DNA of 60,668 bases from an uncultured virus (IMG/VR IMGVR_UViG_3300018405_000013). Lineage: Duplodnaviria > Heunggongvirae > Uroviricota > Caudoviricetes. Each line of letters opens with the position of its first letter. The first letter of the stretch is position 1. The notes under the pieces were generated by a model, which ran no database searches, had not been told where the DNA came from, and was given only the letters and a program-made list of their open reading frames with translations. Of this stretch, positions 3,134 to 55,743 are shown in pieces. The stretch lies in the IMG/VR virus record IMGVR_UViG_3300018405_000013. One strand, given 5' to 3'. Position numbers and translations under genes: made by a program.

Positions 3134-4810
3134 TTATGGCAAGTTTACAATATTCACCATATTCTTTATTCTGTTTATTGTTCTATCTTTCCCTAAGATT
3201 TGTTGAATTTCCCAAATGTCCGGTGATTGTGTTTTGCCTGTCAAGGCCAATCTAATCAAAGAACTTACGTGTCCAACATGACCCTTATATTGCTCTGGAT
3301 TCTTCTTATGGTCTTTTGGTTTTACCGCATATCCTAAGTTTGATGTGATATCCTTAACAGAATTAAACCATTCAGATTGGTCAGCATCATGATTATAGGA
3401 TTCGATATATTCTTCAAGAATTTTTAAGGCATCATCCTTATCTATATTTTCTGGAACTTCGTCAATAATTTTAAGACATTCGTCAAAGAAATATTTGATG
3501 AAATCAAATATCTGGCTTGCACAGATTAAATCTTTTCTTGGTTTATCACCAGTTCTGCCCAAGTCAAGAATTTTACATACATAATCTCTACTTTTAACAA
3601 GCAACGCATATGCATCTTTGTTAAACTCTTGCGCCCAACTTACAAGGAAATCATATATCTCTTCTGCTGAAATTTTAACCATTACATTTTTCGAAACATC
3701 ATCCAATTTATTCAAATCAAACAATGCACCGGAATTACCCATCTTATCTACTGTAAATTGGAATTCATCAATAGATGCATCTGGATTTGCTATGCGCCAT
3801 TCTTCAAAGTTTGAATTTAGAATAGTCATAAGATATTCTCTTACAGCCGCAGGATGATAACCCAATTCCCTATAATAATCCAATGACAGTTCTGGGTCTT
3901 TTCTTTTGGAAAGCTTTCTTTTGTTGCCTTCTTCGTCAAATTTCATCAATTGTGCAGTATGGCAATAGGTCGGAAGTTCAAATCCAAGTTTTTCAAATAA
4001 TTCAATATGAACCGGTAAAGTGGATAACCATTCTGCACCTCTTACGACATGCGTGGTTCTCATTAGATGGTCGTCTACTGCGTGTGCAAAATGATAAGTC
4101 GGAATGCCATTGGTTTTTAATATTACTATATCTTGGTCATTTTCTGGCATTGTTAATTTGCCACGAATACCATCTTCGATAGAAACCATTCTAATTTGTT
4201 CCTTTGGCAAATCTAAATTACCGCTTGATTTAAGACGAATTACATATGGTTCGCCAGACTTAACCCTTTTAGCATATTCTTCAAGCGAAAGATTTCTATT
4301 AACCGCCCACTTGCCATATATTCCAAAGTTTTCCTTGTTCTTTTCCTGCGTTTCATGAATTGCTTCAAGTTCTTCTGATTTTAAGAAGCATGGATATGCT
4401 AATCCTTTTAACACTAAATCCCTAACAAAACATTGATAGATTTCACCACGGTTAGATTGGTAGTAATCACCATAATCACCAACTTGACCATCCACTGTAA
4501 CACCTTCATCGAAGTTCAGACCGAAATATTTCAAAGAGTTAATGATTACATCAACTGCACCCTCTACATAACGTTTATCATCCGTATCTTCAATTCTTAA
4601 ATAGAATGTTCCACCGCTTTGGTGTGCTAGACGTTCATCTGCAAAAGCACCATATAAATTGCCCAAATGGATAAAACCGGTTGGTGAAGGTGCAAGTCTT
4701 GTAACCATCGCATTGTTATCTAAATTTCTATTTGGGAATTGTGATTCGTAATAATCTGGTGTTCTGTCAATTGTCGGGAATAAGATTTTAGCTAATGCTT
4801 CATAATTCAT
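3134..4810 (-). CDS. gltX: glutamyl-tRNA synthetase (class I)
   Basis: TRLAPSPTGFIHLGN (HIGH), LRIEDTD, PTYHFAHAVDDHLMRTTHVVRG, KLSKR (KMSKS); C-terminal anticodon-binding RLALTG..SPDI. Confidence 0.93.
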   Translation of the reverse strand: MNYEALAKILFPTIDRTPDYYESQFPNRNLDNNAMVTRLAPSPTGFIHLGNLYGAFADERLAHQSGGTFYLRIEDTDDKRYVEGAVDVIINSLKYFGLNFDEGVTVDGQVGDYGDYYQSNRGEIYQCFVRDLVLKGLAYPCFLKSEELEAIHETQEKNKENFGIYGKWAVNRNLSLEEYAKRVKSGEPYVIRLKSSGNLDLPKEQIRMVSIEDGIRGKLTMPENDQDIVILKTNGIPTYHFAHAVDDHLMRTTHVVRGAEWLSTLPVHIELFEKLGFELPTYCHTAQLMKFDEEGNKRKLSKRKDPELSLDYYRELGYHPAAVREYLMTILNSNFEEWRIANPDASIDEFQFTVDKMGNSGALFDLNKLDDVSKNVMVKISAEEIYDFLVSWAQEFNKDAYALLVKSRDYVCKILDLGRTGDKPRKDLICASQIFDFIKYFFDECLKIIDEVPENIDKDDALKILEEYIESYNHDADQSEWFNSVKDITSNLGYAVKPKDHKKNPEQYKGHVGHVSSLIRLALTGKTQSPDIWEIQQILGKDRTINRIKNMVNIVNLP

Positions 4811-4847
4811 ATTTCTTGTTTCCTTTCTTGTTTTCAAACTTATCTTA

Positions 4848-6455: not shown

Positions 6456-6481
6456 GCAAGCCACCTGTATTGGTGGCTTGC
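6456..6481 (-). terminator. intrinsic terminator hairpin
   Basis: GCAAGCCACC-TGTATT-GGTGGCTTGC downstream of 6496..6900. Confidence 0.65.
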
Positions 6482-6495
6482 CAGTAGTAATAAAA

Positions 6496-6900
6496 TTAAA
6501 TGGATGCTAATCTTGTTGCGTTTTGAAGTAACTTAAGGTCGATTTCTGACTTAGCCTTCTTAAGTTCACTGATGTTTCTCTTAAGTTCTGTAGCCTCTAC
6601 CGTCTCTACTTCCCATAACTTGAATAGTTCCTTAGTGTTCTTTCTTGTCTCATACACGAACTTGATTCCTTCTGAAATCTGGTCTAAAACTGGAAGTGTC
6701 TGTGCGAATCCGTAAACTCTAATAACTTCCTTCTTTCTGTCGTCGAAATACATATCCTGTGTCTCGTCAATTCGACCCCAAGTTCCTCTTTCATTAAAGA
6801 TAGCCTTACGACCTGCTTCATCACAAAGAATAACATAGAATCCGTGGTCTCTTGTTTCAACAACATTACCAACTGTAAGGTCTCTTAAATTCTTAATCAT
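6496..6900 (-). CDS. hypothetical protein with C-terminal coiled coil
   Basis: RBS AAGGAG; long ORF. Confidence 0.75.
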   Translation of the reverse strand: MIKNLRDLTVGNVVETRDHGFYVILCDEAGRKAIFNERGTWGRIDETQDMYFDDRKKEVIRVYGFAQTLPVLDQISEGIKFVYETRKNTKELFKLWEVETVEATELKRNISELKKAKSEIDLKLLQNATRLASI

Positions 6901-6964: not shown

Positions 6965-7039
6965 TGGTGACTCTGCCTAGCTTACGTACTAGGTTTTCCA
7001 GATTGAGATTCTGACGTACTTACGTTATACTACAGAGCC
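6965..7039 (-). tRNA. atypical tRNA-Glu(CUC)-like RNA 1 (no TPsiC, no D-loop GG, encoded CCA)
   Basis: GGCUCUG UA GUAU AACGUAA GUAC G UCAGA AUCUCAA UCUGG AAAA CCUAG UACGUAAG CUAGG CAGAGUC ACCA folds as a full cloverleaf. Confidence 0.85.
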
Positions 7040-7042
7040 ATA

Positions 7043-7117
7043 TGGTGACCTCGCCTAGTTTTACGTGCTAGGTTCCTTCGATTGAGCGTCGAATGTACTT
7101 CGATATACTACGAGGCC
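7043..7117 (-). tRNA. atypical tRNA-Glu(CUC)-like RNA 2 (G33, 9-nt T loop, encoded CCA)
   Basis: GGCCUCG UA GUAU AUCGAA GUAC A UUCGA CGCUCAA UCGAA GGAA CCUAG CACGUAAAA CUAGG CGAGGUC ACCA. Confidence 0.85.
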
Positions 7118-7137
7118 ATGTTTTAACTGATATATTT

Positions 7138-7166
7138 ATTATATCAGTTATGTATTTAATTGTCAA
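7138..7166 (-). promoter_or_regulatory. sigma-A promoter driving the two tRNA-Glu-like RNAs
   Basis: TTGACA(7166-7161)-17-TATAAT(7143-7138). Confidence 0.8.
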
Positions 7167-7199
7167 GTTTTTAATGTGCTTATTCTAAAACCCTTTTAT

Positions 7200-7565
7200 T
7201 TCACACAGCCCTGCTGAACCTATCCGAGTTTCTGCAATTAATACATACAAGGGTTCAGGACTACATATACAACGCAACAAAGAAGAAAACAAATTAGGCA
7301 AGTAGGATTATCTTGTTCCTTATGAATTGTTATATTATGTATCCCCACAAGCATTATGCTATTTGGGGATGGCATATAAAATGCCGATATATTTTAATTA
7401 TGAAAGAGAAGATTTTGGGAGGTGGCAGTTTAATCTTACAACTGCCAAGATGGATTAAAATATGAAAACAATAAACATTGCTTGCGGTTTGATATAGCTA
7501 TATATTAGGATTTAAAACTTAAAATATCAGCATAATTATAATATATTATACTATATATAACTTAT
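7200..7565 (-). ncRNA. candidate multi-hairpin non-coding RNA
   Basis: ORF-free; hairpins CTGAACC/GGTTCAG, ATCCCCA/TGGGGAT, GGCAT/ATGCC, TGGCAGTT/AACTGCCA; own promoter TTGACA(7600-7595)-17-TATAAT(7577-7572). Confidence 0.5.
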
Positions 7566-7589
7566 ATATTTATTATACCAGTTATGTAT

Positions 7590-8126
7590 TTATTTGTCAA
7601 GTTTTACATGTTTCCATCTTTTTCTACTTATTATACCAGATATTATAGAATGATCTATGTTGAATTTTTTTGCCAAAGCCATACATCCAAATTCTTTGTG
7701 TTTTGGAATATAATTTTCAAGAATATATATTACATCATTTTCTGTAAGTTTTGCGTTAAAACAATCTTCGCCCACCCTAAATAATCTATTAGAAGCGGCA
7801 TGAGCGTTATTATATTTTACCGTACACCATTCTAAATTATCTAAAGAATTATTTAATTTATTACCATCAATATGATTTATAATTGGATAATTATTTGGAT
7901 TCGGTACAAATGTTTCCATTAACGCCTTATGGATTCTTATTGCTTTTCTATTTTTACGAGAACCAAAACTCGCACCAAAATAATAATATCCACTTTTTAA
8001 TATTTTCAATTTTCTAATATATCCAGTTTTTGCATTTTTAACTATACCATTATTAGAAATTAAATAATAATCGCCATAATCTACACCCTGATATATTAAT
8101 CTTTCCCATTGTTCACATTGTAAAAT
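7590..8126 (-). CDS. NUMOD4-HNH homing endonuclease (probable ATT start)
   Basis: EQWERLIYQGVDYGDYYLISNNGIVKN (NUMOD4-like) upstream of track start; IHKALMETFVPN...INHIDGNKLNNSLDNLEW; NAKLTE..V C-terminal HTH. Confidence 0.88.
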   Translation of the reverse strand: MLQCEQWERLIYQGVDYGDYYLISNNGIVKNAKTGYIRKLKILKSGYYYFGASFGSRKNRKAIRIHKALMETFVPNPNNYPIINHIDGNKLNNSLDNLEWCTVKYNNAHAASNRLFRVGEDCFNAKLTENDVIYILENYIPKHKEFGCMALAKKFNIDHSIISGIISRKRWKHVKLDK

Positions 8127-8159: not shown

Positions 8160-8235
8160 TGGCTCCAAGGATGGGGCTTGAACCCATGACCTCGTGCTTA
8201 ACGGGCACTTGCTCTACCAACTGAGCTACCTTGGA
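8160..8235 (-). tRNA. tRNA-Asn(GUU), C33 variant, encoded CCA
   Basis: UCCAAGG..AGCUCAGUUGGUAGAGC..AGUGC CCGUUAA GCACG..UUCAAGC..CCUUGGA GCCA. Confidence 0.9.
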
Positions 8236-8239
8236 ATAT

Positions 8240-8314
8240 TGGTCGGCGTGGTGCGAATTGAACACACGAACAGAGAGATATAAGCTCCCACTCTTACCGC
8301 TGAGTTACACGCCG
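8240..8314 (-). tRNA. tRNA-Ile(UAU), encoded CCA
   Basis: CGGCGUG..GGGAG CUUAUAU CUCUC..GUGUG UUCAAUU CGCAC CACGCCG ACCA. Confidence 0.85.
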
Positions 8315-8319
8315 ATATT

Positions 8320-8404
8320 TGGTCGGTAGAATTGGATTCGAACCAATGAATCATAATGAAACGGATTTACAGTCCGCCTGCTTTAGCCACTTGCATATCT
8401 ACCG
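8320..8404 (-). tRNA. tRNA-Tyr(GUA), long variable arm, C1:G72
   Basis: CGGUAGA..GCGGA CUGUAAA UCCGU..AUUGG UUCGAAU CCAAU UCUACCG ACCA. Confidence 0.9.
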
Positions 8405-8407
8405 ATG

Positions 8408-8485
8408 TGGAGGCGGGGGTGGGATTTGAACCAACACGACCTTTAGGTTATGAGCCTAACAAGCTACCAACTGCTCTACCCCGCA
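8408..8485 (-). tRNA. initiator-like tRNA-Met(CAU)
   Basis: UGCGGGG UAGAGCAGUUGGUAGCUU..UUAGG CUCAUAA CCUAA..UUCAAAU..CCCCGCC UCCA; 1:72 mismatch and fMet-like D arm. Confidence 0.85.
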
Positions 8486-9222: not shown

Positions 9223-10698
9223 CTATACAGTGATGCAATCATACACAGGATTTTCCAAAGTGTTAATCATAGCTTCATATGGCGTTTTACCAATATTATT
9301 CAATATTGATTTAAATACCGATGGTGATTGACCGGATGCAAGCTGAACCCCTTTGTAATTACTTGTAACTTGGAATGCGCTTTTTGTAGAATTTACATTC
9401 CAGTATATAATATTTGGGAATTCATATCCATAATTAGAAAATCTTTTAACCATAGCGTTGTGCCATGTCATATTTCTATCTGTGGTTTGTGCATCAAACT
9501 GCATGTCAGATACTACAACTAATGATTTTGGCATATCTTCCATTGTTAAATTATTTTTTACTGCGGTTTCCAATATTAGTTCAAACGCCGCTTCAAGATT
9601 GGTATTTTGAACTATGGATGGAACGCATCTAATTTTTTCATACAATGTATCACCTACCAATTTAACAAAAGATGGCTGTCTTGAAAATGTCATAAATACA
9701 TCGCTAAAGACACCTTTATTTCTTTCTGCAAAATACATTGCCAGACCAATAGCTGTAGCCATAGGTCTACCATTCATACTTGCAGAAGTATCAGCCATTA
9801 CCAATATATTATTTTCACCATCAATATAATTAGGAAGTGATTTCCACTGTGCTTCAAGAACTTCATCATACTTATCTGGTCTTAAAGTAAAATAATTGCC
9901 AGAGCACATCTTTTCCAAAATGTCATATGGAAATAATGTCGATGCATTAATTTTCTTATCACCAGACTTAACAGCTTCAATATATTCAGTAAACCCATCT
10001 CTATCATGTTTAACGAATGAATTTCGATATATATTCATAGCGTTAGATGGAACTGCTTCATATTTTATATCCTGCCAATCATTATTGGACATTTTTCTTT
10101 CGACTACATCTATATGATTTCTCAACATAGATAACAATCTTCTATATTCTATTTCAGAATATCCAAGCGTCTTAGCCGTCAATCTTCCAATTTTAACAGA
10201 TTCTTTCGAACTTGTATTGGTTGATTTTAACCACTTGGCTAATAAACTTATAGATTCACCTTTTTTGAAGGCGTCAATATCTGCATTTAGCTGTGTTCTT
10301 ACAAAATCCCACATGGCAGATTCTGCCGGCGTTCCAATGAGAGCATATAAATCGTCATATCTTCCAAACATAGGGATGTTCTGCATATTTTTTATGATTA
10401 TTTCTGGATGAACGTTTGCAAGAAATTTAATTGATTCCTTAAACACCCTTCTTTCGCCTAATCCAGAATTTCTTACATCTCTCGCATAGAACAGCATCTT
10501 TGTGGCAATCAGCTTATCTTCTGAAAATGCCTTTATAAATAAATCGGTTATTGCTTCACATGAGGAGTTTCTCATTGCGCCAATAGTGCCGAACATATCT
10601 ACTAAGTTTGAATTTGTTGTTTTTAAGGCAGTAGCACCATTATGTGTGGTGGTAAGATTATTTTCAGCCTTAATTGATTGTATAAATTTTTCTGACAT
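9223..10698 (-). CDS. DUF2828-family protein (Ro60/TROVE-like helical domain + vWA/MIDAS domain)
   Basis: T.NGA..L.TT...VD.F, FYARDVR.GLGERR, GRYDDL, LLAKWL, ADTSASM (MIDAS), VSDMQFD, IIYWNV; RBS AGGAGG. Confidence 0.85.
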   Translation of the reverse strand: MSEKFIQSIKAENNLTTTHNGATALKTTNSNLVDMFGTIGAMRNSSCEAITDLFIKAFSEDKLIATKMLFYARDVRNSGLGERRVFKESIKFLANVHPEIIIKNMQNIPMFGRYDDLYALIGTPAESAMWDFVRTQLNADIDAFKKGESISLLAKWLKSTNTSSKESVKIGRLTAKTLGYSEIEYRRLLSMLRNHIDVVERKMSNNDWQDIKYEAVPSNAMNIYRNSFVKHDRDGFTEYIEAVKSGDKKINASTLFPYDILEKMCSGNYFTLRPDKYDEVLEAQWKSLPNYIDGENNILVMADTSASMNGRPMATAIGLAMYFAERNKGVFSDVFMTFSRQPSFVKLVGDTLYEKIRCVPSIVQNTNLEAAFELILETAVKNNLTMEDMPKSLVVVSDMQFDAQTTDRNMTWHNAMVKRFSNYGYEFPNIIYWNVNSTKSAFQVTSNYKGVQLASGQSPSVFKSILNNIGKTPYEAMINTLENPVYDCITV

Positions 10699-10885: not shown

Positions 10886-11007
10886 TGGCGTGTAGGGGAT
10901 TCGAACCCATAACATATTGTTTCATCGCATTATTATTGTTTCGCAGTTAATGTCTAATACAAGACATTATATACACACAATTGCTCTACCAGTTGAGCTA
11001 ACACGCC
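10886..11007 (-). ncRNA. tRNA-like RNA whose anticodon loop is replaced by a 56-nt insert carrying the permuted stem motif
   Basis: GGCGUGU UAGCUCAACUGGUAGAGC A AUUGU [GUGUAUAUAAUGUCUUG UAU UAGACAUUAACUGCGAAACAAUAAUAAUGCGAUGAA] ACAAU AUGUU AUGGG UUCGAAU CCCCU ACACGCC A; no encoded CCA. Confidence 0.8.
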
Positions 11008-21008: not shown

Positions 21009-21473
21009 TTAATACTCCTTTATGTATATAACACATTTAATATAAGAATCTTTAAAATACTTTTCTATCATTCCTCTAACTACAACCCAGCTTCCGCCAC
21101 CTCGATTACATCCAATTTTATATGGAATTGCTAAACTATAGTTATGCACTTCACAATAATCATACAACTTTTTAAGGCACATGTCAAGTGCATCATAATC
21201 TGTATATTGTTTCTTATCTCTTCCATAATCATCTTGGGCAAAAAGATTAACGATAATAACATCGTCACATTCTATTGGTTGGATTTTTCCAAGAAGTTTG
21301 TTGCCAAGAAGGTCGCAATATTTTTTATATGAGGCAAACACATTTGGATATCTTATTCTTACGGAATATGCAATTCCCGAACCCATTTTTGATTTACAGT
21401 TTGTTTGATGGGCAATACAATCACAATTTGTATTAAATATATCATCTTTAATATATTCAATCATAATTGACAC
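21009..21473 (-). CDS. macro domain protein (Poa1p/TARG1/DarG-like)
   Basis: IAHQTNC..MGSGIA, NLFAQ, PYKIGC.RGGGSW. Confidence 0.85.
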   Translation of the reverse strand: MSIMIEYIKDDIFNTNCDCIAHQTNCKSKMGSGIAYSVRIRYPNVFASYKKYCDLLGNKLLGKIQPIECDDVIIVNLFAQDDYGRDKKQYTDYDALDMCLKKLYDYCEVHNYSLAIPYKIGCNRGGGSWVVVRGMIEKYFKDSYIKCVIYIKEY

Positions 21474-23528: not shown

Positions 23529-24272
23529 CTATTTTGCGGACTTGTCAATATATTCAAATATCCATCCCTTGTGTGATTTTCTATCACCATTAAGACATCT
23601 TATAACACACGAATATACTAAATTATGTTCCTTTGAAAATTTATTGGCACCTTTGGTTATAATGGTTATTTTTGTATATACATTATACGCCTTAAAACTT
23701 TTCAACTTATCAAACTGTTTATTATTACTTAATTCTACATTTTTATTTTTTGTTATCCAAATACAGTTCGCAACATTATATTGTTCACCTAATTTTAAAT
23801 CTTTATCTAATTCAAGCAATCCTTGTAATATTAATTTTTCATCATATCCATCTATCATAACTACATCTATTATATAATTTTCAAAACATAACCATCTATC
23901 ACATACGGTTATGCCTTTGCCACCATAATTCTTATAATCTTTACAATCATATTTATAACATCTATATATCATACTTAACCATCTTGAATACAAACAATTG
24001 TTGCGGCGTGCATTGCCTATACATGCAATACCTAATATATTAGGAAAATATGGGTCTTTAATATTGCAATTAATTATTTCATTTTTATTAGCCAGAAAAG
24101 TATAATTACTGATAACAAAACTACACTCATATAATTTTGCTCTACCACATAATTTATCAGTTATGCCATTAACAATAAATTCACCATATTTTCCTAAAAA
24201 TTTCTTTCCAACAATATCGTCATTATTTTCTATTATAGAATAATCTTTAAACTTAATATATTTTCTCCTCAT
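23529..24272 (-). CDS. HNH-type homing endonuclease-like protein
   Basis: YSRWLSMIYRCY..YGGKGITVCDRWLCFENY, LDKD; C-terminal CLNG.RKSHKGW. Confidence 0.8.
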   Translation of the reverse strand: MRRKYIKFKDYSIIENNDDIVGKKFLGKYGEFIVNGITDKLCGRAKLYECSFVISNYTFLANKNEIINCNIKDPYFPNILGIACIGNARRNNCLYSRWLSMIYRCYKYDCKDYKNYGGKGITVCDRWLCFENYIIDVVMIDGYDEKLILQGLLELDKDLKLGEQYNVANCIWITKNKNVELSNNKQFDKLKSFKAYNVYTKITIITKGANKFSKEHNLVYSCVIRCLNGDRKSHKGWIFEYIDKSAK

Positions 24273-24283
24273 ATACCCACCTA

Positions 24284-25183
24284 TTACTTAGCTGAAATAT
24301 CTGCATTATGCAATAATTTTAAATTATCATATGTCTCTACTCCAACTAATTTTTTAAATTTATCTATTGATTTATTAGTATTTATATTATATAATTGCAT
24401 ATGCCATGTGATATATTTGCATATTTCAAGTATATCTTCGTCAGAATATTCTAACGATTTTAAATAAAACATTGCGTCATAAGCACCGACTAAGTGATGT
24501 TGATTGTATGTGCAATATCCTTTTTCTTGATTGAATTGTTTTGTGAAAGGTTTCCCAATATCGTGCATTTGTGCTGCCGTATATAATCTTTCATAAAATT
24601 CATCATTATTTGTCATAATTTCTAAATTTGTAGCACATGTATCAAGATGCCTACCGATTGTTAGTGTGTGATGTGGGTTATTTTGGTCTATTTCATCTAA
24701 TTCTGCTAAACGAGATATTATATTGAAATCTTTTTTATTAAACCGCCAAACTATGTCTATTTTGTCAAATCCTTCATATAACTGCGGTAAAAAAATATTG
24801 CTATACATCCTTTTAATTACATCTACACCGACGGTTCTTTCACGCTTACTGTCTGCAACAATGCAATCTTTATACGGTGTGGCAAAAACTAATGCTTTCT
24901 TTTCATGTTTATATTTTTCTATTGTTCTTAAAAAAGACGCCCTTTTTCTATGTGATATATTTGTTGCATCATATATAACATCATAGCCTAAATGCAAATC
25001 ATCTTGAATTCTCTTGTGCAATTCAGCAAATAAAATTTGATTTTTATCTACCACATTTACACTTCCAAACATCTCTTTTCTTAGTTCATCAGATGAATGA
25101 ACTTTAAAATTAGAAAAGTTTTCTTTTATAAATGTTGATTTTCCGCTTCCCGGCAAGCCTACGGTCATCACAAATTCACTCAT
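24284..25183 (-). CDS. polynucleotide kinase (AAA_33) fused to HD phosphoesterase
   Basis: GLPGSGKST, SSDELR, YDATN; HH..T...H, MHDIGKP, HH, WHM, AD. Confidence 0.88.
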   Translation of the reverse strand: MSEFVMTVGLPGSGKSTFIKENFSNFKVHSSDELRKEMFGSVNVVDKNQILFAELHKRIQDDLHLGYDVIYDATNISHRKRASFLRTIEKYKHEKKALVFATPYKDCIVADSKRERTVGVDVIKRMYSNIFLPQLYEGFDKIDIVWRFNKKDFNIISRLAELDEIDQNNPHHTLTIGRHLDTCATNLEIMTNNDEFYERLYTAAQMHDIGKPFTKQFNQEKGYCTYNQHHLVGAYDAMFYLKSLEYSDEDILEICKYITWHMQLYNINTNKSIDKFKKLVGVETYDNLKLLHNADISAK

Positions 25184-25184
25184 A

Positions 25185-25979
25185 TTATACTCCTAACTCT
25201 AATTTGAAGTTTTTTGACATGCAGTTATATAAAACATCATTTAAAACATTTTCTACGTTCTTATTTATACAAACTTCATTGTCGTTCATATATTTTGACT
25301 TAACTTCTCCGCTTTTCTTTAAAATCTTATTAGCTATTTCTCTGGCTTCATCTAAATTATGACGACCTTTTTTAACGTCTATTAAATATTCTGTATTTTT
25401 AGATATCAAACATTCACTGTATGGTTCTCCAGAAATATACCTCTCAATAAATTCTTCTAATCTAATTAGGTGATGCAATTGTTTTGGATCGTAGCCGAAC
25501 TTTTCTATTTTATCCATTGTTGCTGGATATGGATGTTCAAGTGCTTTGTGCTTTTCCATAATCATACCACACATACAATTCAAGGAAGCATAATTATTAT
25601 ACCTTGCCACATATTCACGTATATCAATTAGTGGTTTAAATATTTTTTCATATGCTGGATTAAATACTATATATTCTGTAAATAATATTTCTATGAAATT
25701 GATATTTTGCTTCTTAAAGCAATCAAACATCAATCTAATATCTTTTAAATCTATATGTTCATTATTTTCAAGAACATGTGTTGTGCTGATTGGTTTACTA
25801 TTTAATAAAAAGTCTTTAAATTTAGGCAAAATAATAGCTTTACAATCAATATCACTATCTTCATAATCCAAATTGTAGTTCTGAGAACCCTGTAAAAATA
25901 CACCAATTGTTTCATATTCCATATCTTTAACAGTATTATAATTTTCTTCTAATCTATTCATTATTTTCTTTTTATCCAT
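25185..25979 (-). CDS. Pol-beta-superfamily nucleotidyltransferase (RNA-ligase-associated type)
   Basis: LQGSQNYNLDYEDSDIDCK; NINFIEILF; GYDPKQLHHLIRL. Confidence 0.8.
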   Translation of the reverse strand: MDKKKIMNRLEENYNTVKDMEYETIGVFLQGSQNYNLDYEDSDIDCKAIILPKFKDFLLNSKPISTTHVLENNEHIDLKDIRLMFDCFKKQNINFIEILFTEYIVFNPAYEKIFKPLIDIREYVARYNNYASLNCMCGMIMEKHKALEHPYPATMDKIEKFGYDPKQLHHLIRLEEFIERYISGEPYSECLISKNTEYLIDVKKGRHNLDEAREIANKILKKSGEVKSKYMNDNEVCINKNVENVLNDVLYNCMSKNFKLELGV

Positions 25980-27204
25980 CTTTTTCCTCCAAATACGCAA
26001 ATGCTGCTGAATAATCCATAATTATACCAAGTTCATTTAACTTTTTGTAACTATTTGAATTATTTTTTAATACATTAAATTCTTTATTTAGATAAACACT
26101 TTTTATATATCCAATTAGATTAGGTGGACAGTTTTTATCGACCCATATCATAAATGTCTTTCTATCATCTTTTGGTGCATTATCATAATAATATCTTATC
26201 CAATTTTCCGTATTATGCTTATACTTAAAGATTTCATTAGATATTTTTTCAATCCTTATTTTATAATTATCGAGGATTTTACTAATCATATCATCATATC
26301 TATCTTCGGCAATATTTTGTATAACCACATTAATTGATGACATTTTATCAAGAAGTCTATGTAGGTTAATATAATCGTCACATTTAATTTTTATTTTGTG
26401 ACCATCAATATTTATTACCCATCCCTCTTTTTCATTAGACTTCAATTTTTTCATATTATCCAATATTTCATCAAGTGTAGTTTCTTCAATCTGTGTCATT
26501 GGAATATCGTATTTTTCAGCAAATAATTTAATATCATAATAGTTTAATTCTTCACCGGTATAAACATTTCTTATACCAATTAAATATAAACCTTGTTGAT
26601 TTGCATTATATAATACCACATGAGCATCTTTCATACTTATATATTCAAATATAAATGTATAATCTTGATTTTCATATAACATTGTTTTATAGTTATCAGT
26701 CAACATAGAATAACCATCTTGTAATCTCCAAGAATCATCTGCTGACAATGCCATACTACCAGACATAAAGTAATTATCTTTATAATATCTTGCAGATTGC
26801 ATAGAGCCATCTAATTTATTAGTATATTCAACTATTTTAGCCTTATTAAGTTCATCTGATATTACATCAACATTATTTTCTGGTATTTCATCCATGTTAA
26901 AGAATTTTCTAAATGGTGTTAATACAAGTTCTTCATTCTCCAAGTCAATAACAATACTTCTGCATTCCCTATAGATACTATTTGAATCTGTCCACATTGA
27001 CTCTTGCATGTCGGCAATACCATAACGTATTAACAAATAATTATTATATTGATTTGTTTGGAGACAATCAAATATGTCATTGTATTCAACATTATTTAAT
27101 TTTTCTATCCAAGTATTAAAATCAATTGTATCAATACCGAATTTATTTTTATATTCATTTTTTATAGACATAACTAAATTATATACTGGATTCCATTCAT
27201 ACAT
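25972..27204 (-). CDS. ATP-dependent RNA ligase, T4 Rnl1 family
   Basis: ECRS, PFRKFFN, KLDGS (motif I), FEY, EGWV, KIK. Confidence 0.88.
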   Translation of the reverse strand: MYEWNPVYNLVMSIKNEYKNKFGIDTIDFNTWIEKLNNVEYNDIFDCLQTNQYNNYLLIRYGIADMQESMWTDSNSIYRECRSIVIDLENEELVLTPFRKFFNMDEIPENNVDVISDELNKAKIVEYTNKLDGSMQSARYYKDNYFMSGSMALSADDSWRLQDGYSMLTDNYKTMLYENQDYTFIFEYISMKDAHVVLYNANQQGLYLIGIRNVYTGEELNYYDIKLFAEKYDIPMTQIEETTLDEILDNMKKLKSNEKEGWVINIDGHKIKIKCDDYINLHRLLDKMSSINVVIQNIAEDRYDDMISKILDNYKIRIEKISNEIFKYKHNTENWIRYYYDNAPKDDRKTFMIWVDKNCPPNLIGYIKSVYLNKEFNVLKNNSNSYKKLNELGIIMDYSAAFAYLEEKDG

Positions 27205-35291: not shown

Positions 35292-35864
35292 TCATAATTT
35301 ACTTTTTTTATTATACCGCATCATTAACGCAACGCATAATATAGACATGCTTATAGCGCTTGATATTAAATTACCGATATAATTATTCATGTTAACACAT
35401 AAAAAACTAATAAAATAAAATAAGATAAGTGTATTTATATATTTACTAACAAACCATTCCTTGGTTTTACCATTCATATTTTCTTTTGATATAATTGGAA
35501 CTTTTTTAATTATGTATATTCCAAATACCATACTTATAAACAATAGAATGTTTACTTGACACATTATGTATTTAGAGATTATAGCCGTAGATAATATCAA
35601 CGGAATACTAATACATAAACATTTATCAAGAGTTGTAGAATGATATCCACCACTATATAACCGTAATACATTTAACACAATTAGAACAATTATCATTTGT
35701 GGTATGCATTCAAATATATATGCAAGACCAAAAAAGAATATGTTGGATATAATAAAAAAAGTAAGAAATATGACGTTATCTTCAAAATCATCATAATTTC
35801 TTACTTTAAATAGCTTTGTTTTAATTAATGCGTCAATAATCCGCATTGATATTTTTATAATCAT
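35292..35864 (-). CDS. agrB: accessory gene regulator B (AgrB) family peptide-processing membrane protease
   Basis: LRLYSGGYHS...C motif (catalytic His/Cys), ~6 TM. Confidence 0.85.
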   Translation of the reverse strand: MIIKISMRIIDALIKTKLFKVRNYDDFEDNVIFLTFFIISNIFFFGLAYIFECIPQMIIVLIVLNVLRLYSGGYHSTTLDKCLCISIPLILSTAIISKYIMCQVNILLFISMVFGIYIIKKVPIISKENMNGKTKEWFVSKYINTLILFYFISFLCVNMNNYIGNLISSAISMSILCVALMMRYNKKSKL

Positions 35865-42242: not shown

Positions 42243-45200
42243 TTAAGTTTCTTCAATAATTATTGTTATATTATTTTCATTATTATAATAGTAATTTGCC
42301 AATATATTTACTGGTGGCAATGTTAGTGTTGTGCCAGTAATATTATAGTCGCCAGCATTAGTAGGTGTAGTAACATTATTTCTACATAAAGTATATGGCG
42401 AAGTTGAATTTATTTGAGCTGATATTTTAACATTATTAATATTTGTTATTTTAGGAATTGTTACAGTATTCTCTGGATATGTTAAAGTGTATGTTTGAGG
42501 AACAAATCCATTTACATAATAATCCTTACTTATTGAAACAGTTTTATCAGATAATGTTGTAGAATTTAATAAAAATCCATATGCGTTGTTTGCATCTGTA
42601 TTTATTTCATCTAATGTAGCGGAAATATCTATGACAACACTATCTGTAAATTCATTTTGTGGTATCGGTGGATCTATTGTTATTGTTCCAATATCATATA
42701 AATTCCATAATGTTTGAATCATATTTGGCTGTGTTAACTTAGCATTAAATCTACCAGTTTCTCCTCCACGAATCCTAAATTTAAAATCTAATGATTCTTG
42801 AGTATATAACGCTCCCATATCTACAATTTTAACTACTATATTATTTGTTATAATGGCACCATTATGTGCGTTTCTTATTGTATATTTAACATTGGGCGTT
42901 GTTAAATTACTATAGTGTATACCTTGTGACATATTTTTTGCAACAGTGATTGTCTTAGTTCCACTATAAGTTGGTGCAGAATATGAACTATCCACGGAAG
43001 TTATTGTGCTATTAATTTCTGAAAGTATAGACTCTATAGTTATGTCCCTAACATAATCTTGGCAGTATGTAATATTTAATGGAATTTCTGCCTGTTCTAA
43101 TAATTTAATTGCACCTTGTTCGCTTTCGCCATTATATTTAATTGTTCCAACTGTGCAGGTGGGCAACACATCATTGCATGTCACTGTGTTATCACTAACA
43201 TACCAATTAGACCAAGAGCCATTAACACTTCTAACACGAACCCTTACGTGTTGCTGTGTATCACCAGAAGTAGAATTTGTATCAGCTACCATATATGGAA
43301 CAACCATTCCTGGATTATTTGAAACATCCCATATATTATGTATATTTTTTGTTCCGGCTTCAAAATCGTCGGTTTCAACTCTATCAAAATCAATATCTGC
43401 CACCACACCAAGGAAGGCGATATCATCCTTTTTTAATGCAGTTTGATGTATTGTGGTTGCACCAGTCCAAGTTAAAAATGGATATATATTTGATAATGTC
43501 ACTGAACTTATAACGGGTTTATTAAGTTTAATAATCGGCGTAATATGTTCAAAATTTCCTAAATTACATGTCAAGCTGTCTAATGAAGATATATCTACTG
43601 TTACCGTATTTATATATTCATTTCCAACCTTGCTATCATATGTTGTTATATCAACATCGCAACAGTTTGGACGTCCTTGGTATACTGTGTTAGCCCTCCA
43701 AGTAATGGTAACCTTAAGACTTGTTGCATCGGTAGATAGGCTTTTAACGACCTTATTTTCTGTTGAGTCATTCCATATTATATTAAGCGCATCATCAGTA
43801 TTTACTTTCTCTATATTTGTTATAAACACACTATTAAGCTGCTCATTTGTAGCTACCTTTTCCCAAATATCCTCTTTTGCAAGCAATATTATTTTTGGTA
43901 TTTTAGTCCCCAAAACACCAACTAATGTCGCCGACTTACTAAAACTCAATTCAAACCTATATGTATAATCTTTACTCATGTATACGCTTCCAACAGTCTC
44001 TCTGAGATTAAAAGTTTGTTCTCCGGCTGTGGTAGCTAAACTCCAGCAATTCTTATCTATAGAAAATTTAAACGCATCACTATCTTCACCATTTTCCCAA
44101 TGACGAACGCCTGTCGTCTCGTTTATTATTCTTAGTTTAACTTGAGTTCCAGCTACCGAAGTAACATTTTCTACCTTAATATTATCTAATCTTATGTTTT
44201 TACTAGGGCGATATCCAGATATCGCAAATGATTCGCCGCTAATATTTGATGTAGAGTTCCCGGCCGTGTCGAAATAATCATCCCCATCATAAGATACCCC
44301 GACGCCATCGCTAGTAGTTTGTAACCAAATACGTTTATTGTTGCTATTATTATCACCAACTAAAAGGTCATCGTCGCCACTCCATCTTAATGCAGCAAAA
44401 TATTTACCATCATCATCTTTTTTTCTTAATATAGCCAACTGGTCGTTAAAGATTTCTTTAGTTGACCATTCTTGTGTGGCCAAAGTTTCATAGTTAAATA
44501 TTTTTCCTCCAAGTTCTATATATGGTATAAAAACATTGGTTCCCCCAATATGACCTTTTAGCTTTACTGGGTTGCTAAAATTAAATTGAACTTTTGTGGA
44601 AACATTACTTAAAATAGGTCTTGGTGAAGTAAATGTAACAGTGTTCAATCCAGAATGACATAGTAACGACGTATTTGCCGAAGGATTATTTAAAGCGCCA
44701 ATATATCCAGATAGTGATACATTTTCAACCAACATATAAGAACTTCCATCTTCTAATAATAATTCGATCGCAACTCTGCAAATGGTATTCGTAGGAGGTT
44801 CCTCTTCTAATTCAAATGATAATGTTTCATTTACAAAGTTAATGGTTGTTCGTCTATCGTAATGCATTTCGTCATATTCTCTAAATGTATTGTTGTCATT
44901 TGGTGGAATATATGTTACGGCGGTGTTGCTAAATGGCGTAACGAGTCTTGCTGACTTATTTCCAGCCAATGCTATGTTCCCATCCATATTTCCTAATATA
45001 AGACCTTTTAAATCACTTGTTATACGCGTAAGATCATATCTTTTATTATCATATGGTGATTGGAAAAATAGTCCACCGGATGATTTATTTATTATAAAAT
45101 CATCTGTAGTTAACGATCCTATTTGTGAAACAAAATTCCACGTTAGTGGCTGATCCGTAGCCGCCATATCGTAAATCTCATAATCCAATTTATGATTGGT

Positions 45201-45353
45201 CGTATTCTTAACTAATCTCCAGTCATATTGAACTGGAGTAGTTTTATATGATTTCAATAATACGCCAGTATTAAATTCTGCTTCTGATACGGGCGAAAAT
45301 GTGGTTGAGGCTATATCCATAGCCATTCCTCTTGCGATTAAATCTATAGCCAA
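42243..45353 (-). CDS. large (1036 aa) beta-rich virion/tail-associated protein
   Basis: long ORF, Thr/Ser/Asn-rich, tail-module context. Confidence 0.7.
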   Translation of the reverse strand: MAIDLIARGMAMDIASTTFSPVSEAEFNTGVLLKSYKTTPVQYDWRLVKNTTNHKLDYEIYDMAATDQPLTWNFVSQIGSLTTDDFIINKSSGGLFFQSPYDNKRYDLTRITSDLKGLILGNMDGNIALAGNKSARLVTPFSNTAVTYIPPNDNNTFREYDEMHYDRRTTINFVNETLSFELEEEPPTNTICRVAIELLLEDGSSYMLVENVSLSGYIGALNNPSANTSLLCHSGLNTVTFTSPRPILSNVSTKVQFNFSNPVKLKGHIGGTNVFIPYIELGGKIFNYETLATQEWSTKEIFNDQLAILRKKDDDGKYFAALRWSGDDDLLVGDNNSNNKRIWLQTTSDGVGVSYDGDDYFDTAGNSTSNISGESFAISGYRPSKNIRLDNIKVENVTSVAGTQVKLRIINETTGVRHWENGEDSDAFKFSIDKNCWSLATTAGEQTFNLRETVGSVYMSKDYTYRFELSFSKSATLVGVLGTKIPKIILLAKEDIWEKVATNEQLNSVFITNIEKVNTDDALNIIWNDSTENKVVKSLSTDATSLKVTITWRANTVYQGRPNCCDVDITTYDSKVGNEYINTVTVDISSLDSLTCNLGNFEHITPIIKLNKPVISSVTLSNIYPFLTWTGATTIHQTALKKDDIAFLGVVADIDFDRVETDDFEAGTKNIHNIWDVSNNPGMVVPYMVADTNSTSGDTQQHVRVRVRSVNGSWSNWYVSDNTVTCNDVLPTCTVGTIKYNGESEQGAIKLLEQAEIPLNITYCQDYVRDITIESILSEINSTITSVDSSYSAPTYSGTKTITVAKNMSQGIHYSNLTTPNVKYTIRNAHNGAIITNNIVVKIVDMGALYTQESLDFKFRIRGGETGRFNAKLTQPNMIQTLWNLYDIGTITIDPPIPQNEFTDSVVIDISATLDEINTDANNAYGFLLNSTTLSDKTVSISKDYYVNGFVPQTYTLTYPENTVTIPKITNINNVKISAQINSTSPYTLCRNNVTTPTNAGDYNITGTTLTLPPVNILANYYYNNENNITIIIEET

Positions 45354-46943: not shown

Positions 46944-46967
46944 TTTTAACCACGCTTTCTTTTATAA

Positions 46968-47657
46968 CTATATGGTAGATATAATATCTGATAACGTATT
47001 TTTACTTAAATCACCAATTATTGTATTTAATTTTAGTCCTTGTGTGCAATCTAATCTGCAATCAGTAGAAACTGTACCGTCATAATTAACACCCATACCA
47101 GTTTTAGAGTTAATAAATCCTATTTTTTCTTCTAATATTTCATTCAATTCTACTTTTTTATGAAATAAAATATAGTTTCTTTGCCAATTTAATAATGTAA
47201 CGATTTCTACGCCATTATACATTCCATACACATATCTATCATCTTGGTCTATTATCGACATTCCAAGATATTGATACAGATCAATAAAATAATCGAATCC
47301 CAAATTATCATAATCGTAAATATAAACTGAATCAACATTAAGATTAACTAGCGTAGAATTATTTATAAAATCCCCATTTGTATATAACACAACTTTATTA
47401 TCTGGCATAATTTCTTTTATTTTTTGCGCCTTACTTCTTAAATTATCAATTTCTATCATTGGTTCATTAAGTCTATTTAGCTTTATAACACCTTTAAACT
47501 CGCTATCTTTCAATTCTTTAATCAGATTATCAAAAACACTATCATCAAGTAATTTATTGACATTCCTATTTTCAGTAAAGTGTAGGCACCAGCTGCACTT
47601 GTTATTACAATTTGAAGATAATCCAATTTCTATTATGTCTAAGTCTTTAATCAGCAT
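46968..47657 (-). CDS. radical SAM protein (paralog 1)
   Basis: CNNKCSWC, NEPM, YTNGDF, YDYDN. Confidence 0.85.
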   Translation of the reverse strand: MLIKDLDIIEIGLSSNCNNKCSWCLHFTENRNVNKLLDDSVFDNLIKELKDSEFKGVIKLNRLNEPMIEIDNLRSKAQKIKEIMPDNKVVLYTNGDFINNSTLVNLNVDSVYIYDYDNLGFDYFIDLYQYLGMSIIDQDDRYVYGMYNGVEIVTLLNWQRNYILFHKKVELNEILEEKIGFINSKTGMGVNYDGTVSTDCRLDCTQGLKLNTIIGDLSKNTLSDIISTI

Positions 47658-52019: not shown

Positions 52020-52036
52020 AACTAATTCCTTTCATT

Positions 52037-53782: not shown

Positions 53783-53783
53783 A

Positions 53784-55734: not shown

Positions 55735-55743
55735 ATAATTCAC

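What the first reader, a model, noticed from the sequence alone, without database searches (positions are those of the whole stretch)
6965..7117. Tandem tRNA-Glu(CUC)-like RNAs with rebuilt elbow, near a phage glutamyl-tRNA synthetase: possible non-ribosomal glutamyl-donor system
Seen: two 75-nt cloverleaves with encoded CCA, own promoter, compensatory differences in acceptor and anticodon stems, CUC anticodon, G1:C72, G2.U71, A73, U11:A24, U13.G22 and a 4-nt variable loop; but T loops are UACGUAAG and CACGUAAAA (8-9 nt, no UUC), D loops lack GG (AACGUAA, AUCGAA), and copy 2 has G33. Established: U11:A24, U13.G22 and the short variable loop are GluRS identity elements; G2.U71/A73 matches Bacillus-type tRNA-Glu; non-proteinogenic tRNAs such as staphylococcal tRNA-Gly lose T/D-loop consensus. 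gltX lies ~2.2 kb downstream. Inference: chargeable but ribosome-excluded tRNAs feeding Glu to a transferase (protein, cell-wall or DNA modification), or nuclease/toxin decoys. tRNA scanners would likely miss them.
Basis: partly seen in the sequence, partly recalled or inferred. Interest (0 to 1): 0.85.

Follow-up and report, generated by a model that had tools for sequence, protein, structure and literature searches.

The report
Phage tRNA-Glu look-alikes with rebuilt elbow
A large freshwater phage carries two tandem, strongly promoted RNAs that keep the shape and glutamate-enzyme recognition marks of tRNA-Glu but have replaced the universal tRNA "elbow", so they probably work with glutamyl-tRNA synthetase outside ordinary protein synthesis.

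Summary
Two 75-nt cloverleaves, each ending in CCA, lie on the minus strand at 7117..7043 and 7039..6965, behind a perfect sigma-70-type promoter. All 42 stem cells pair, and 5 pairs differ between the copies on both sides. Both copies have anticodon CUC and the tRNA-Glu D-helix marks, but 8-9-nt T loops without UUC and D loops without GG. One copy has G33. ARAGORN misses both at default settings, and Rfam scores only one.

New evidence makes routine decoding unlikely:
- The shared T stem predicts EF-Tu binding about 1 kcal/mol weaker than the tRNA-Glu class.
- GAG is only 13% of Glu codons.
- A bacterium of the likely host lineage already has canonical tRNA-Glu(CUC).

The phage GluRS is an intact enzyme derived from Anaerovoracaceae (about 70% identity). 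It appears to travel with ORF134, the gene downstream of the RNAs, in three related contigs.

No aminoacyl-tRNA transferase family was found in the window. No copy of the RNAs was found in other GluRS-bearing viral contigs. There are no expression data. My best reading is a pair of selected tRNA-Glu mimics that GluRS can probably charge and that do not decode. Their downstream use is unknown.

The parts
7138..7167 (-). Sigma-70/sigma-A-type promoter with extended -10 (CTTGACA-17-TGATATAAT) driving the RNA pair
   Evidence: One search gives a 12/12 match with TG. One search shows it is one of 14 perfect sites in the window (0.06 expected). In the wastewater relative the hexamers are unchanged while the spacer differs.
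7043..7117 (-). Copy A: 75-nt tRNA-Glu(CUC)-like RNA with D loop AUCGAA, anticodon loop CGCUCAA (G33), T loop CACGUAAAA and an encoded CCA
   Evidence: the cloverleaf is its minimum-energy fold; 99.2 bits to its own model. Rfam gives no match.
6965..7039 (-). Copy B: 75-nt tRNA-Glu(CUC)-like RNA with D loop AACGUAA, anticodon loop AUCUCAA (U33), T loop UACGUAAG and an encoded CCA
   Evidence: Rfam tRNA, 40.6 bits; ARAGORN -ps90 calls Glu ctc.
6496..6900 (-). ORF134, probably co-transcribed with the pair. It starts 65 nt after copy B behind an AAAGGAGAA ribosome-binding site. The scan found no terminator-like site on this strand between them.
   Evidence: It has 8 homologs at 60-72% identity. 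The AlphaFold model (pLDDT 85.5) shows a small beta-barrel plus a long C-terminal helix. It matches no family and no known fold.
6456..6481 (-). Terminator-like hairpin (10 pairs, 7 of them G-C) that closes the unit after ORF134
3134..4837 (-). Phage glutamyl-tRNA synthetase. The likely true start is the ATG at 4810, giving 558 aa, as in the homologs.
   Evidence: Pfam PF00749 and PF19269. TIGR00464 scores 297.9 against a cut-off of 289.95. The HLGN and KLSKRK motifs are present, and 7 of 8 recalled glutamate-pocket positions are conserved against 1J09. It is about 70% identical to Aminipila and Anaerovoracaceae GluRS. The start position comes from the alignment.
8160..8485 (-). Context: cluster of four canonical phage tRNAs (Met-like CAU, Tyr GUA, Ile UAU, Asn GUU). 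All have normal GGUUC-type T loops, an encoded CCA and 3-5-nt spacers, which is the same gene style as the pair.

Best explanation
The two RNAs are functional derivatives of tRNA-Glu, not decaying pseudogenes.

Proposed pathway:
1. Host RNA polymerase transcribes them from an early-class consensus promoter, probably on one transcript with ORF134.
2. They are cut out like tRNAs. RNase P would cut at G1, and the 3-nt spacer would be trimmed back to the encoded CCA.
3. GluRS binds them and probably glutamylates them, most likely the phage's own enzyme acquired from the host lineage. GluRS reads the acceptor end, the D helix and the anticodon, and these are exactly the parts the two copies keep identical.
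4. The outer corner of the tRNA L-shape has been rebuilt. There is no T54-Psi55-C56 and no G18-G19, the T loops are 8-9 nt, and both D and T loops carry a CG core. The T stem has a weak 51-63 pair for EF-Tu, and one copy has G33.

Together these changes should take the RNAs out of routine EF-Tu and ribosome traffic, and away from enzymes that read or cut the canonical T loop.

They therefore act as tRNA-Glu mimics that engage GluRS but do not decode. They could be glutamyl carriers for a non-ribosomal acceptor or a GluRS-directed mimic.

Shown: the anatomy, the covariation, the promoter, the tRNA-Glu ancestry and an intact GluRS. Inferred: processing, charging, exclusion from translation, and the downstream use.
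For: - Structure is under selection. 42 of 42 cells pair, and 5 of 21 pairs are compensated on both sides (3 in the acceptor stem, 2 in the anticodon stem). The unusual loops are shared by both diverged copies, so they predate the duplication and were retained.
- A wastewater relative (X7 contig, depth 3) shows 1 difference across 7026-7117, in the first T-loop nucleotide (C>U, as in copy B). It shows 7-8 differences across 7118-7211. Fisher p = 0.065 or 0.035.
- The positions identical in both copies are: pairs 1-3 and 7 of the acceptor stem, A73-CCA, U8, A9, the whole D stem (G10:C25, U11:A24, A12:U23, U13.G22), A14, A21, A46, the 4-nt variable loop, nucleotides 34-38 (CUCAA) and the whole T stem. 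Positions 26/44 swap from A/G to G/A.
- tRNA-Glu ancestry. The model R1 hits 1 of 24 tRNAs in L005, the tRNA-Glu, at 41.7 bits. The acceptor end equals that of Anaerovoracaceae tRNA-Glu(UUC).
- EF-Tu calculation, my arithmetic from Table 2 of PMC3239215. C49-G65 contributes 0.0, C50-G64 contributes -0.2 and U51-A63 contributes +1.0, giving about -9.3 kcal/mol.
  - The bacterial class means are Glu(CUC) -10.3 (sd 0.50, 70 tRNAs) and Glu(UUC) -10.4.
  - The host-lineage T stems give -10.6 and -10.3.
  - The staphylococcal Gly(UCC) outlier in that paper is -9.5 against a class mean of -10.8.
- Decoding need is low. There are 920 GAA and 138 GAG codons among 17,531 codons. An Anaerovoracaceae genome carries canonical tRNA-Glu(CUC) and (UUC).
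- The phage's four ordinary tRNAs keep canonical T loops, so the remodelling is specific to this pair.
- GluRS is intact. Four GluRS sit on long branches apart from 52 bacterial sequences (SH-aLRT 99, quick tree). They are the window's enzyme and three linked to ORF134 homologs by equal contig lengths of 76353, 80504 and 43224.
Against: - There are no data on expression, processing or aminoacylation, and no RNA run holds the stretch.
- Only one distant-enough relative of the RNA was seen, a 191-nt contig at depth 3.
- No aminoacyl-tRNA-using transferase family turned up among the 78 ORFs scanned. ORF134 has no recognisable RNA-binding or transferase fold.
- Copy B has a normal U33 and a 7-nt anticodon loop, and it passes Rfam's tRNA threshold, so it could still decode GAG.
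- The EF-Tu figure comes from a model built on canonical tRNAs, and the adjacent A52-U62 pair may alter it.
- The identity set used (U11:A24, U13.G22..A46, no residue 47) is recalled from E. coli work. The host-lineage tRNA-Glu has A13/A22 instead of U13.G22.
- The link between ORF134 and GluRS in relatives rests only on equal contig lengths.
Confidence: 0.42

Rival explanations
1. They are working GAG decoders. On this reading they are unusual but translation-competent phage tRNA-Glu(CUC) genes, whose altered loops help them escape a host nuclease that reads the T loop or anticodon loop, or are simply tolerated.
For: - They share the gene style of the canonical phage tRNA cluster: an encoded CCA, short spacers and the same promoter class.
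- Copy B has U33, scores 40.6 bits on Rfam's tRNA model, and ARAGORN -ps90 calls it Glu(ctc).
- The phage carries a tRNA-repair set of kinase-HD, nucleotidyltransferase and Rnl1 ligase, which points to a conflict over tRNA damage.
- A CRISPR-associated Schlafen cuts the T-loop UUC motif, and U54 or U55 mutations abolish that cleavage (PMC13462974, passages).
- Phage tRNAs that evade tRNA-targeting defences are known (PMC10264068, PMC11464382 and PMC11555353, abstracts in the search listing).
Against: - A CUC anticodon reads only GAG, which is 13% of the phage's Glu codons. It could not rescue GAA decoding if host tRNA-Glu were destroyed.
- The likely host lineage already has tRNA-Glu(CUC).
- The four other phage tRNAs keep UUC T loops, so a T-loop nuclease would still disable translation.
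- Copy A has G33, and the calculated EF-Tu T stem is weak.
- From recall, no bacterial elongator tRNA lacking both GG and T-Psi-C is known to decode.
Confidence: 0.25
2. They are uncharged decoys or sponges. On this reading the abundant tRNA-shaped RNAs soak up a host factor that attacks or senses tRNA-Glu, tRNA 3' ends or GluRS, such as an anticodon nuclease, a CCA-modifying toxin or a HipA-like kinase acting on GluRS-tRNA complexes. No glutamate transfer would be involved.
For: - The pair is tandem and sits behind a perfect early promoter.
- The anti-defence context includes RNA-repair genes and a DarG-like macrodomain.
- The CUCAA anticodon core and the CCA end are conserved.
Against: - Positions 32 and 33 of the anticodon loop differ between the copies (CG versus AU). 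That is odd for a decoy of an anticodon-loop nuclease.
- This reading gives no reason to conserve the full GluRS-type D helix and variable-region marks.
- No cognate defence that targets tRNA-Glu in bacteria is known to me (recall).
- PADLOC shows no nearby system partner.
Confidence: 0.15
3. They are Y-RNA-like partners of the phage Ro-like DUF2828 protein, which lies 2.1 kb upstream.
For: - The DUF2828/DUF7788 protein (PHROG 850, annotated 'RNA-binding protein') is at 9223..10698.
- Bacterial and phage Y RNAs mimic tRNA (PMC4201824, passages).
- In Bacillus phage Tsamsa the DUF2828 gene directly follows the tRNA cluster.
Against: - A different RNA occupies the adjacent position. It is a 121-127-nt tRNA-like RNA with canonical D and T arms and an insert in the anticodon loop, and it sits directly upstream of DUF2828 in the window and in both nearest relatives.
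- R1 finds nothing in those three DUF2828 loci (0 of 3).
- YrlA keeps a canonical T arm, which this pair lacks.
Confidence: 0.05
4. They are decaying duplicate tRNA pseudogenes without a function.
For: - tRNA scanners reject or down-score them.
- Phage tRNA clusters often hold pseudo-tRNAs. Tsamsa, for example, annotates two tandem 'tRNA-OTHER' pseudogenes.
Against: - All 11 stem substitutions between the copies preserve pairing.
- The derived loops are shared by both copies.
- The pair has a dedicated perfect promoter.
- In a relative, copy A is conserved while its flanks diverge.
Confidence: 0.06

Closest known systems
Non-proteinogenic tRNA-Gly of Staphylococcus, the glycine donors for FemXAB cell-wall bridges
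   Same: Both are chargeable tRNAs that have lost the D- and T-loop consensus and carry a T stem weak for EF-Tu. PMC3239215 lists the Staphylococcus Gly(UCC) outlier at -9.5 against a class mean of -10.8. The pair here calculates to -9.3 against -10.3. Both sit beside ordinary isoacceptors.
   Different: The pair here is in a phage, carries glutamate identity, and has 8-9-nt T loops, with G33 in one copy. No Fem-type or other transferase partner was found in the 60-kb window. The loop details of the staphylococcal tRNAs are recalled. For PMC7826273 I saw only the abstract start in the search listing.
Bacillus cereus pseudo-tRNA 'tRNA-Other'
   Same: It is a Firmicute tRNA-like RNA with non-canonical features. 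It is aminoacylated but has a role outside decoding.
   Different: It is chromosomal, a single gene, and charged with lysine. It is not paired with its own synthetase gene in a phage.
YrlA-type bacterial and phage Y RNAs (PMC4201824)
   Same: They are tRNA mimics encoded near RNA-metabolism genes, and some are cut by RNase P and receive CCA.
   Different: YrlA keeps canonical D and T arms and replaces the anticodon arm with a Ro-binding helix. The pair here does the opposite: it keeps the anticodon arm and remodels the D and T loops.
Defence-evading phage tRNAs, such as T5 tRNA variants, the PARIS-neutralising tRNA-Lys and the retron-evading tRNA-Tyr (PMC10264068, PMC11464382, PMC11555353; abstracts only)
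   Same: They are phage-encoded tRNAs whose sequence changes are explained by conflict with tRNA-targeting immunity. The phage here also has tRNA-repair genes.
   Different: Those tRNAs are canonical decoders with changes in the anticodon loop. Here the elbow is rebuilt, and the anticodon serves a rare codon.
Phage T4 stable RNAs, species 1 and 2, in the tRNA region (recalled)
   Same: They are small stable RNAs of unknown role encoded beside phage tRNA genes, with tRNA-like ends.
   Different: They are longer and are not complete cloverleaves with an anticodon and synthetase identity marks.

Membership tests
Canonical bacterial elongator tRNA (Rfam RF00005) | Cloverleaf with 7/4/5/5-bp stems, U8, A14, A21 and an encoded or added CCA | tested here: met
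   42 of 42 cells pair, and U8, A14, A21 and CCA are present in both copies.
Canonical bacterial elongator tRNA (Rfam RF00005) | 7-nt T loop with U54-U55-C56 and A58, and G18-G19 in the D loop | tested here: not met
   The T loops are CACGUAAAA and UACGUAAG, and the D loops are AUCGAA and AACGUAA. The four neighbouring phage tRNAs do have GGUUC-type T loops.
Canonical bacterial elongator tRNA (Rfam RF00005) | U33 in a 7-nt anticodon loop | tested here: inconclusive
   Copy B has U33 and copy A has G33.
Canonical bacterial elongator tRNA (Rfam RF00005) | Score above the family threshold, and detection by ARAGORN | tested here: inconclusive
   Copy B scores 40.6 bits against a threshold of 29. 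Copy A has no match at E <= 10. ARAGORN at default settings finds 0 of 2.
tRNA-Glu (substrate of bacterial GluRS) | Augmented D helix: U11:A24, U13.G22..A46 and no residue 47 (the E. coli identity set, recalled) | tested here: met
   Both copies have all of these features. The host-lineage tRNA-Glu shares U11:A24 and the 4-nt variable loop but has A13/A22.
tRNA-Glu (substrate of bacterial GluRS) | Anticodon YUC followed by A37, and an acceptor end like that of host tRNA-Glu | tested here: met
   Both copies read CUC-A37. G1:C72, G2.U71 and A73 match tRNA-Glu(UUC) of genome G001. R1 hits only the tRNA-Glu among the 24 tRNAs of L005.
tRNA-Glu (substrate of bacterial GluRS) | Aminoacylation with glutamate | not testable with these tools
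   This needs an in vitro or in vivo charging assay.
Non-proteinogenic (non-ribosomal donor) tRNA | Weakened EF-Tu binding relative to its isoacceptor class | tested here: met
   This is a calculation only. The pair gives -9.3 kcal/mol against a class mean of -10.3 (sd 0.5) and host-lineage values of -10.3 and -10.6. The values come from the tables in PMC3239215.
Non-proteinogenic (non-ribosomal donor) tRNA | A cognate aminoacyl-tRNA-dependent transferase encoded by the same genome | tested here: inconclusive
   0 of 78 window ORFs hit such a Pfam family. At least 80 kb of the 143-169-kb genome was not available.
YrlA / Y RNA | A Ro-binding helix in place of the anticodon arm, a canonical T arm, and a position adjacent to the Ro-like gene | tested here: not met
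   The pair has a full anticodon arm and a non-canonical T arm. A different long tRNA-like RNA sits next to DUF2828 in 3 of 3 loci, and R1 hits 0 of 3 of those loci.
Type III toxin-antitoxin (ToxI-like RNA repeats followed by a toxin gene) | Tandem RNA repeats followed by a ToxN/AbiQ/CptN-family endoribonuclease gene | tested here: inconclusive
   The layout is similar: promoter, two repeats, then an ORF. However, ORF134 has no PADLOC, Pfam or PHROG hit, and no ToxN-type fold appears among the listed matches.

The most novel reading that the evidence does not exclude
The phage runs a private glutamate-activation pair made of a fast-evolving, host-derived GluRS and two elbow-remodelled tRNA-Glu carriers. 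The pair delivers glutamate to a non-ribosomal acceptor, such as a phage or host protein, a peptide, the cell envelope or a nucleic acid. ORF134 would act as the adaptor or user. This would be the first translation-independent aminoacyl-tRNA pathway encoded by a virus.
Probability: 0.13. Interest if true: 0.9.

Novelty: new variant of a known kind. Interest (0 to 1): 0.6.

Why it matters
Bacterial tRNAs that are charged but kept out of translation are known from very few systems, and none from a virus. Here a phage keeps two such candidates under selection beside its own synthetase. That offers a compact, testable system of two 75-nt RNAs, one enzyme and one small protein.

It bears on three questions:
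- How much of the tRNA elbow is needed for processing, charging and EF-Tu or ribosome use.
- Why some phages carry aminoacyl-tRNA synthetases.
- Whether phages use tRNA mimics in the current arms race over tRNA-targeting immunity.

It also shows that standard tRNA scanners miss this class.

Tried and rejected
Searches for relatives of the RNAs all came back empty or returned the phage itself:
- An exact 36-mer in viral contigs found nothing, as did a full degenerate pattern.
- A T-arm pattern gave 10 loci that were only the hairpin itself.
- A D-arm plus anticodon pattern gave 22 loci, the best at 15 bits and none a cloverleaf.
- The one metagenome scan returned only a 143-kb contig 99.95% identical to the window.
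- blastn against phages gave only E = 6 matches to ordinary tRNA-Glu.

Searches for related phages through proteins:
- GluRS as a single sequence found nothing in viral contigs.
- The ORF134 alignment found nothing in viral contigs or genome contigs.

Other searches with the RNA model R1:
- It found no match in five Anaerovoracaceae-type genomes. The tool warns that an empty answer shows nothing.

Records that could not be reached:
- The whole genome and the rest of the contig are not held.

Sequencing runs:
- No RNA holder is listed.
- An RNA-labelled wastewater run holds an identical 138-nt piece at 7176-7313. That piece lies upstream of the pair's promoter, shows no stable fold (z = +1.8 and +1.5), and may come from DNA.
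- The X7 contig at 6934-6972 (7 differences in 39 nt, then unlike sequence) was treated as spurious.

ORF134 function:
- The best Foldseek match had E = 0.48.
- The best VIA match had Z = 4.7, to papain-like and SH3-like barrels, below the tool's noise level.
- The Atlas returned only unnamed viral clusters.

Ideas rejected:
- A LanB-type dehydratase. The 1036-aa ORF at 42243-45353 has no Pfam or PHROG hit and lies among tail genes.
- A T-box decoy, an attachment-site fragment and a reading on the plus strand. The plus strand has no CCA and no promoter, and folds with z = -1.3.
Full report
**What the window is.** The window is part of a large tailed phage with 30.7% G+C. A freshwater metagenome contig of 143 kb is 99.95% identical to it, and the ORF134 protein is recorded on a contig of 169 kb. 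Nearly all genes run on the minus strand. The region from 1 to 28 kb holds replication and RNA-metabolism genes behind 14 perfect TTGACA-N17-TATAAT promoters, against 0.06 expected by chance. Tail genes follow.

**The observation.** On the minus strand a 12/12 promoter with a TG motif lies at 7166..7138. It is followed by copy A (7117..7043), a UAU spacer and copy B (7039..6965). Both copies are 75 nt and end in A73-CCA.
- On the cloverleaf, 42 of 42 cells are standard pairs.
- Five of the 21 pairs differ on both sides (acceptor pairs 4-6 and anticodon-stem pairs 2-3), and one differs on one side.
- Structures slid by 1-3 columns pair only 22-45% of cells, and 10 of 500 shuffles reach the observed scores.
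- ARAGORN at default settings finds neither copy. At -ps90 it calls copy B tRNA-Glu(ctc), and in mitochondrial mode it calls both Glu(ctc).
- Rfam's tRNA model gives copy B 40.6 bits and gives copy A nothing at E <= 10.

**What the RNAs derive from.** A covariance model of the two copies (R1) hits one of the 24 tRNAs of a Klebsiella phage locus, at 41.7 bits. That one is its tRNA-Glu(UUC).

The phage GluRS is about 70% identical to the housekeeping GluRS of Aminipila, Lentihominibacter and other Anaerovoracaceae. I therefore took an Anaerovoracaceae genome, G001, whose record title names Brotomerdimonas butyrica. It has 43 tRNA matches, including canonical tRNA-Glu(UUC) and tRNA-Glu(CUC). Its tRNA-Glu(UUC) has G1:C72, G2.U71, A73, U11:A24, a 4-nt variable loop and the T stem CCGGG/CCCGG. 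The phage RNAs share all of these except the two central T-stem pairs, which read CCUAG/CUAGG.

**What is conserved and what is rebuilt.** The following are identical in both copies:
- acceptor pairs 1-3 and 7, and A73-CCA;
- U8, A9, the whole D stem, A14 and A21;
- A46 and the 4-nt variable loop;
- nucleotides 34-38 (CUCAA);
- the whole T stem.

Positions 26/44 swap from A/G to G/A. So the tRNA core and the surfaces that GluRS reads (a recalled identity set) are kept. GluRS binds the inner side of the L-shape, which I recall from the Thermus complex.

Only the elbow is non-canonical. The T loops are YACGUAA plus 1-2 nt, and the D loops are A(U/A)CG(U)AA. The common element is a CG in each loop, which could form two Watson-Crick pairs. 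In copy B, five pairs are possible between the D and T loops. Because both diverged copies share these derived loops, the loops predate the duplication and have been retained.

**One natural variant.** A wastewater run (X7) holds a 191-nt contig, at depth 3, over 7026-7211.
- Across 7026-7117 it has one difference, C>U at the first T-loop nucleotide of copy A. That makes the loop match copy B and could close a sixth T-stem pair.
- Across 7118-7211 it has 7 to 8 differences, all outside the promoter hexamers.
- Fisher p is 0.065 or 0.035.

This is weak evidence for constraint on the RNA.

**Evidence against routine decoding.**
- GAA outnumbers GAG by 920 to 138. By contrast, the phage tRNA-Ile(UAU) matches 736 ATA codons.
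- The likely host lineage already has tRNA-Glu(CUC).
- Copy A has G33.
- EF-Tu binding can be estimated from the T stem using Table 2 of PMC3239215 (passages).
  - The pairs C49-G65, C50-G64 and U51-A63 sum to +0.8 kcal/mol relative to yeast tRNA-Phe.
  - That gives about -9.3 kcal/mol, which is my arithmetic. The -10.1 baseline was checked on three rows of the paper's Table 3.
  - The bacterial classes average -10.3 (sd 0.50) for Glu(CUC) and -10.4 for Glu(UUC).
  - The Staphylococcus Gly(UCC) outlier, which I recall as the cell-wall tRNA, is -9.5 against a class mean of -10.8.
  - The host-lineage tRNA-Glu stems compute to -10.6 and -10.3.
- The four ordinary phage tRNAs at 8160-8485 have canonical loops and the same CCA-plus-spacer gene style.

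**The synthetase and ORF134.** The GluRS gene is at 3134..4837, with the probable start at 4810.
- It passes TIGR00464, at 297.9 against a cut-off of 289.95.
- It has the HLGN and KLSKRK motifs.
- It keeps 7 of the 8 glutamate-pocket residues that I recall for 1J09, with N191 replaced by H.

Three GluRS homologs have longest contigs of 76,353, 80,504 and 43,224 bp. Three ORF134 homologs have exactly the same values. This suggests, indirectly, that GluRS and ORF134 travel together in related phages.

I built a quick IQ-TREE of 56 rows: P0002, P0012-P0059 and seven later rows. P0011 and most of P0060-P0130 were left out, and the careful search did not finish. In that tree these four sequences sit on long branches (0.45-0.83), outside a clade of 52 bacterial sequences with SH-aLRT 99.

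ORF134 starts 65 nt after copy B, and the scan found no terminator-like site on the minus strand between them. A terminator-like hairpin follows ORF134 at 6481..6456. Its model (pLDDT 85.5) is a small beta-barrel plus a long helix. It matches no significant fold or family.

- None of the 78 ORFs scanned with Pfam is a known aminoacyl-tRNA-dependent transferase. More than half of the genome was out of reach, however.
- R1 finds nothing in the whole records of the three closest GluRS-bearing 'phage' entries.
- It finds only ordinary tRNAs in a 735-kb phage.
- It finds nothing within 10 kb of GluRS in 9 IMG/VR loci.
- One INPHARED 'phage' with gltX is plainly bacterial DNA.

So the RNAs are not a general companion of viral GluRS.

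**Context for the conflict readings.** The phage encodes a kinase-HD protein, a nucleotidyltransferase and an Rnl1-type ligase (24284-27204), and a DarG-like macrodomain. T-loop-cutting Schlafen nucleases that need U54 and U55 are described in PMC13462974 (passages). Because only these two RNAs have lost UUC, and because CUC reads a rare codon, I rank escape-by-decoder below a non-decoding role.

**Literature.** Five full-text searches turned up no description of phage tRNA-Glu-like RNAs with remodelled elbows. The library is partial, and supplements were not consulted.

**Verdict.** This is a real, selected and unusual pair of tRNA-Glu mimics in one phage lineage. Chargeability and exclusion from translation are inferred, not shown. 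The downstream use is open.

Noticed in passing
window 10886-11007 (-); L019 1494-1620; L020 1570-1690: A 121-127-nt tRNA-like RNA sits directly upstream of the Ro-like DUF2828/DUF7788 gene in the window and in its two closest relatives. It has perfect D and T arms, a 7-bp acceptor stem and a roughly 55-nt insert in place of the anticodon loop. The insert contains a conserved AUGUC...GACAU hairpin. It is a likely Y-RNA-like partner of DUF2828 with an architecture unlike YrlA.
   Followed up: partly
window 24284-27204 (-): A tRNA or RNA repair cassette. It comprises a P-loop kinase fused to an HD domain (with a weak match to the HD part of CCA-adding enzymes), a 271-aa nucleotidyltransferase, and a T4 RnlA-family RNA ligase.
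   Followed up: partly
window 7176-7601 (-): A second promoter at 7601..7572 has a spacer nearly identical to that of the pair's promoter. It precedes about 390 nt with several hairpins and only a 45-aa ORF. An RNA-labelled wastewater run holds a 138-nt contig 100% identical to 7176-7313, but that piece shows no stable fold.
   Followed up: partly
window 8411-8485 (-): The phage tRNA(CAU) has a U1/C72 mismatch at the top of the acceptor stem. This resembles an initiator tRNA, although the anticodon stem has only two G-C pairs.
   Followed up: no
window 51201-55743 (-) and 35292-35864 (-), 45834-47657 (-): Unusual enzymes lie among the tail genes. They include NeuB-family synthase, a cytidylyltransferase, two radical-SAM/SPASM proteins, an unknown 346-aa ORF, an AgrB-like membrane protein, and an S8 peptidase with a copper-amine-oxidase N-domain. 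They may serve virion glycosylation or peptide maturation.
   Followed up: no
window 21009-21473 (-): A macrodomain protein resembles the DarG antitoxin (NF048014, E = 1.9e-14, below the cut-off). It may counter DNA ADP-ribosylation defences.
   Followed up: no
window 7590-8009 (-) and 23529-24272 (-): Two HNH homing-endonuclease genes. The first lies between the canonical tRNA cluster and the tRNA-like pair.
   Followed up: no
L016 (CAKLQH020000003.1) and L002 (MT835705.1): Some database entries labelled as phages look bacterial. The 'Acinetobacter phage MD-2021a' record carries ftsL, mraW and gltX with tRNA-Ala and tRNA-Glu. MT835705 carries a T-box leader.
   Followed up: no
L021 2477-2649 (Bacillus phage Tsamsa): Two tandem 83-nt 'tRNA-OTHER' pseudogenes lie inside a 19-tRNA cluster that sits directly upstream of the phage's DUF2828 gene. 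This is another phage with paired odd tRNAs next to this protein family.
   Followed up: no
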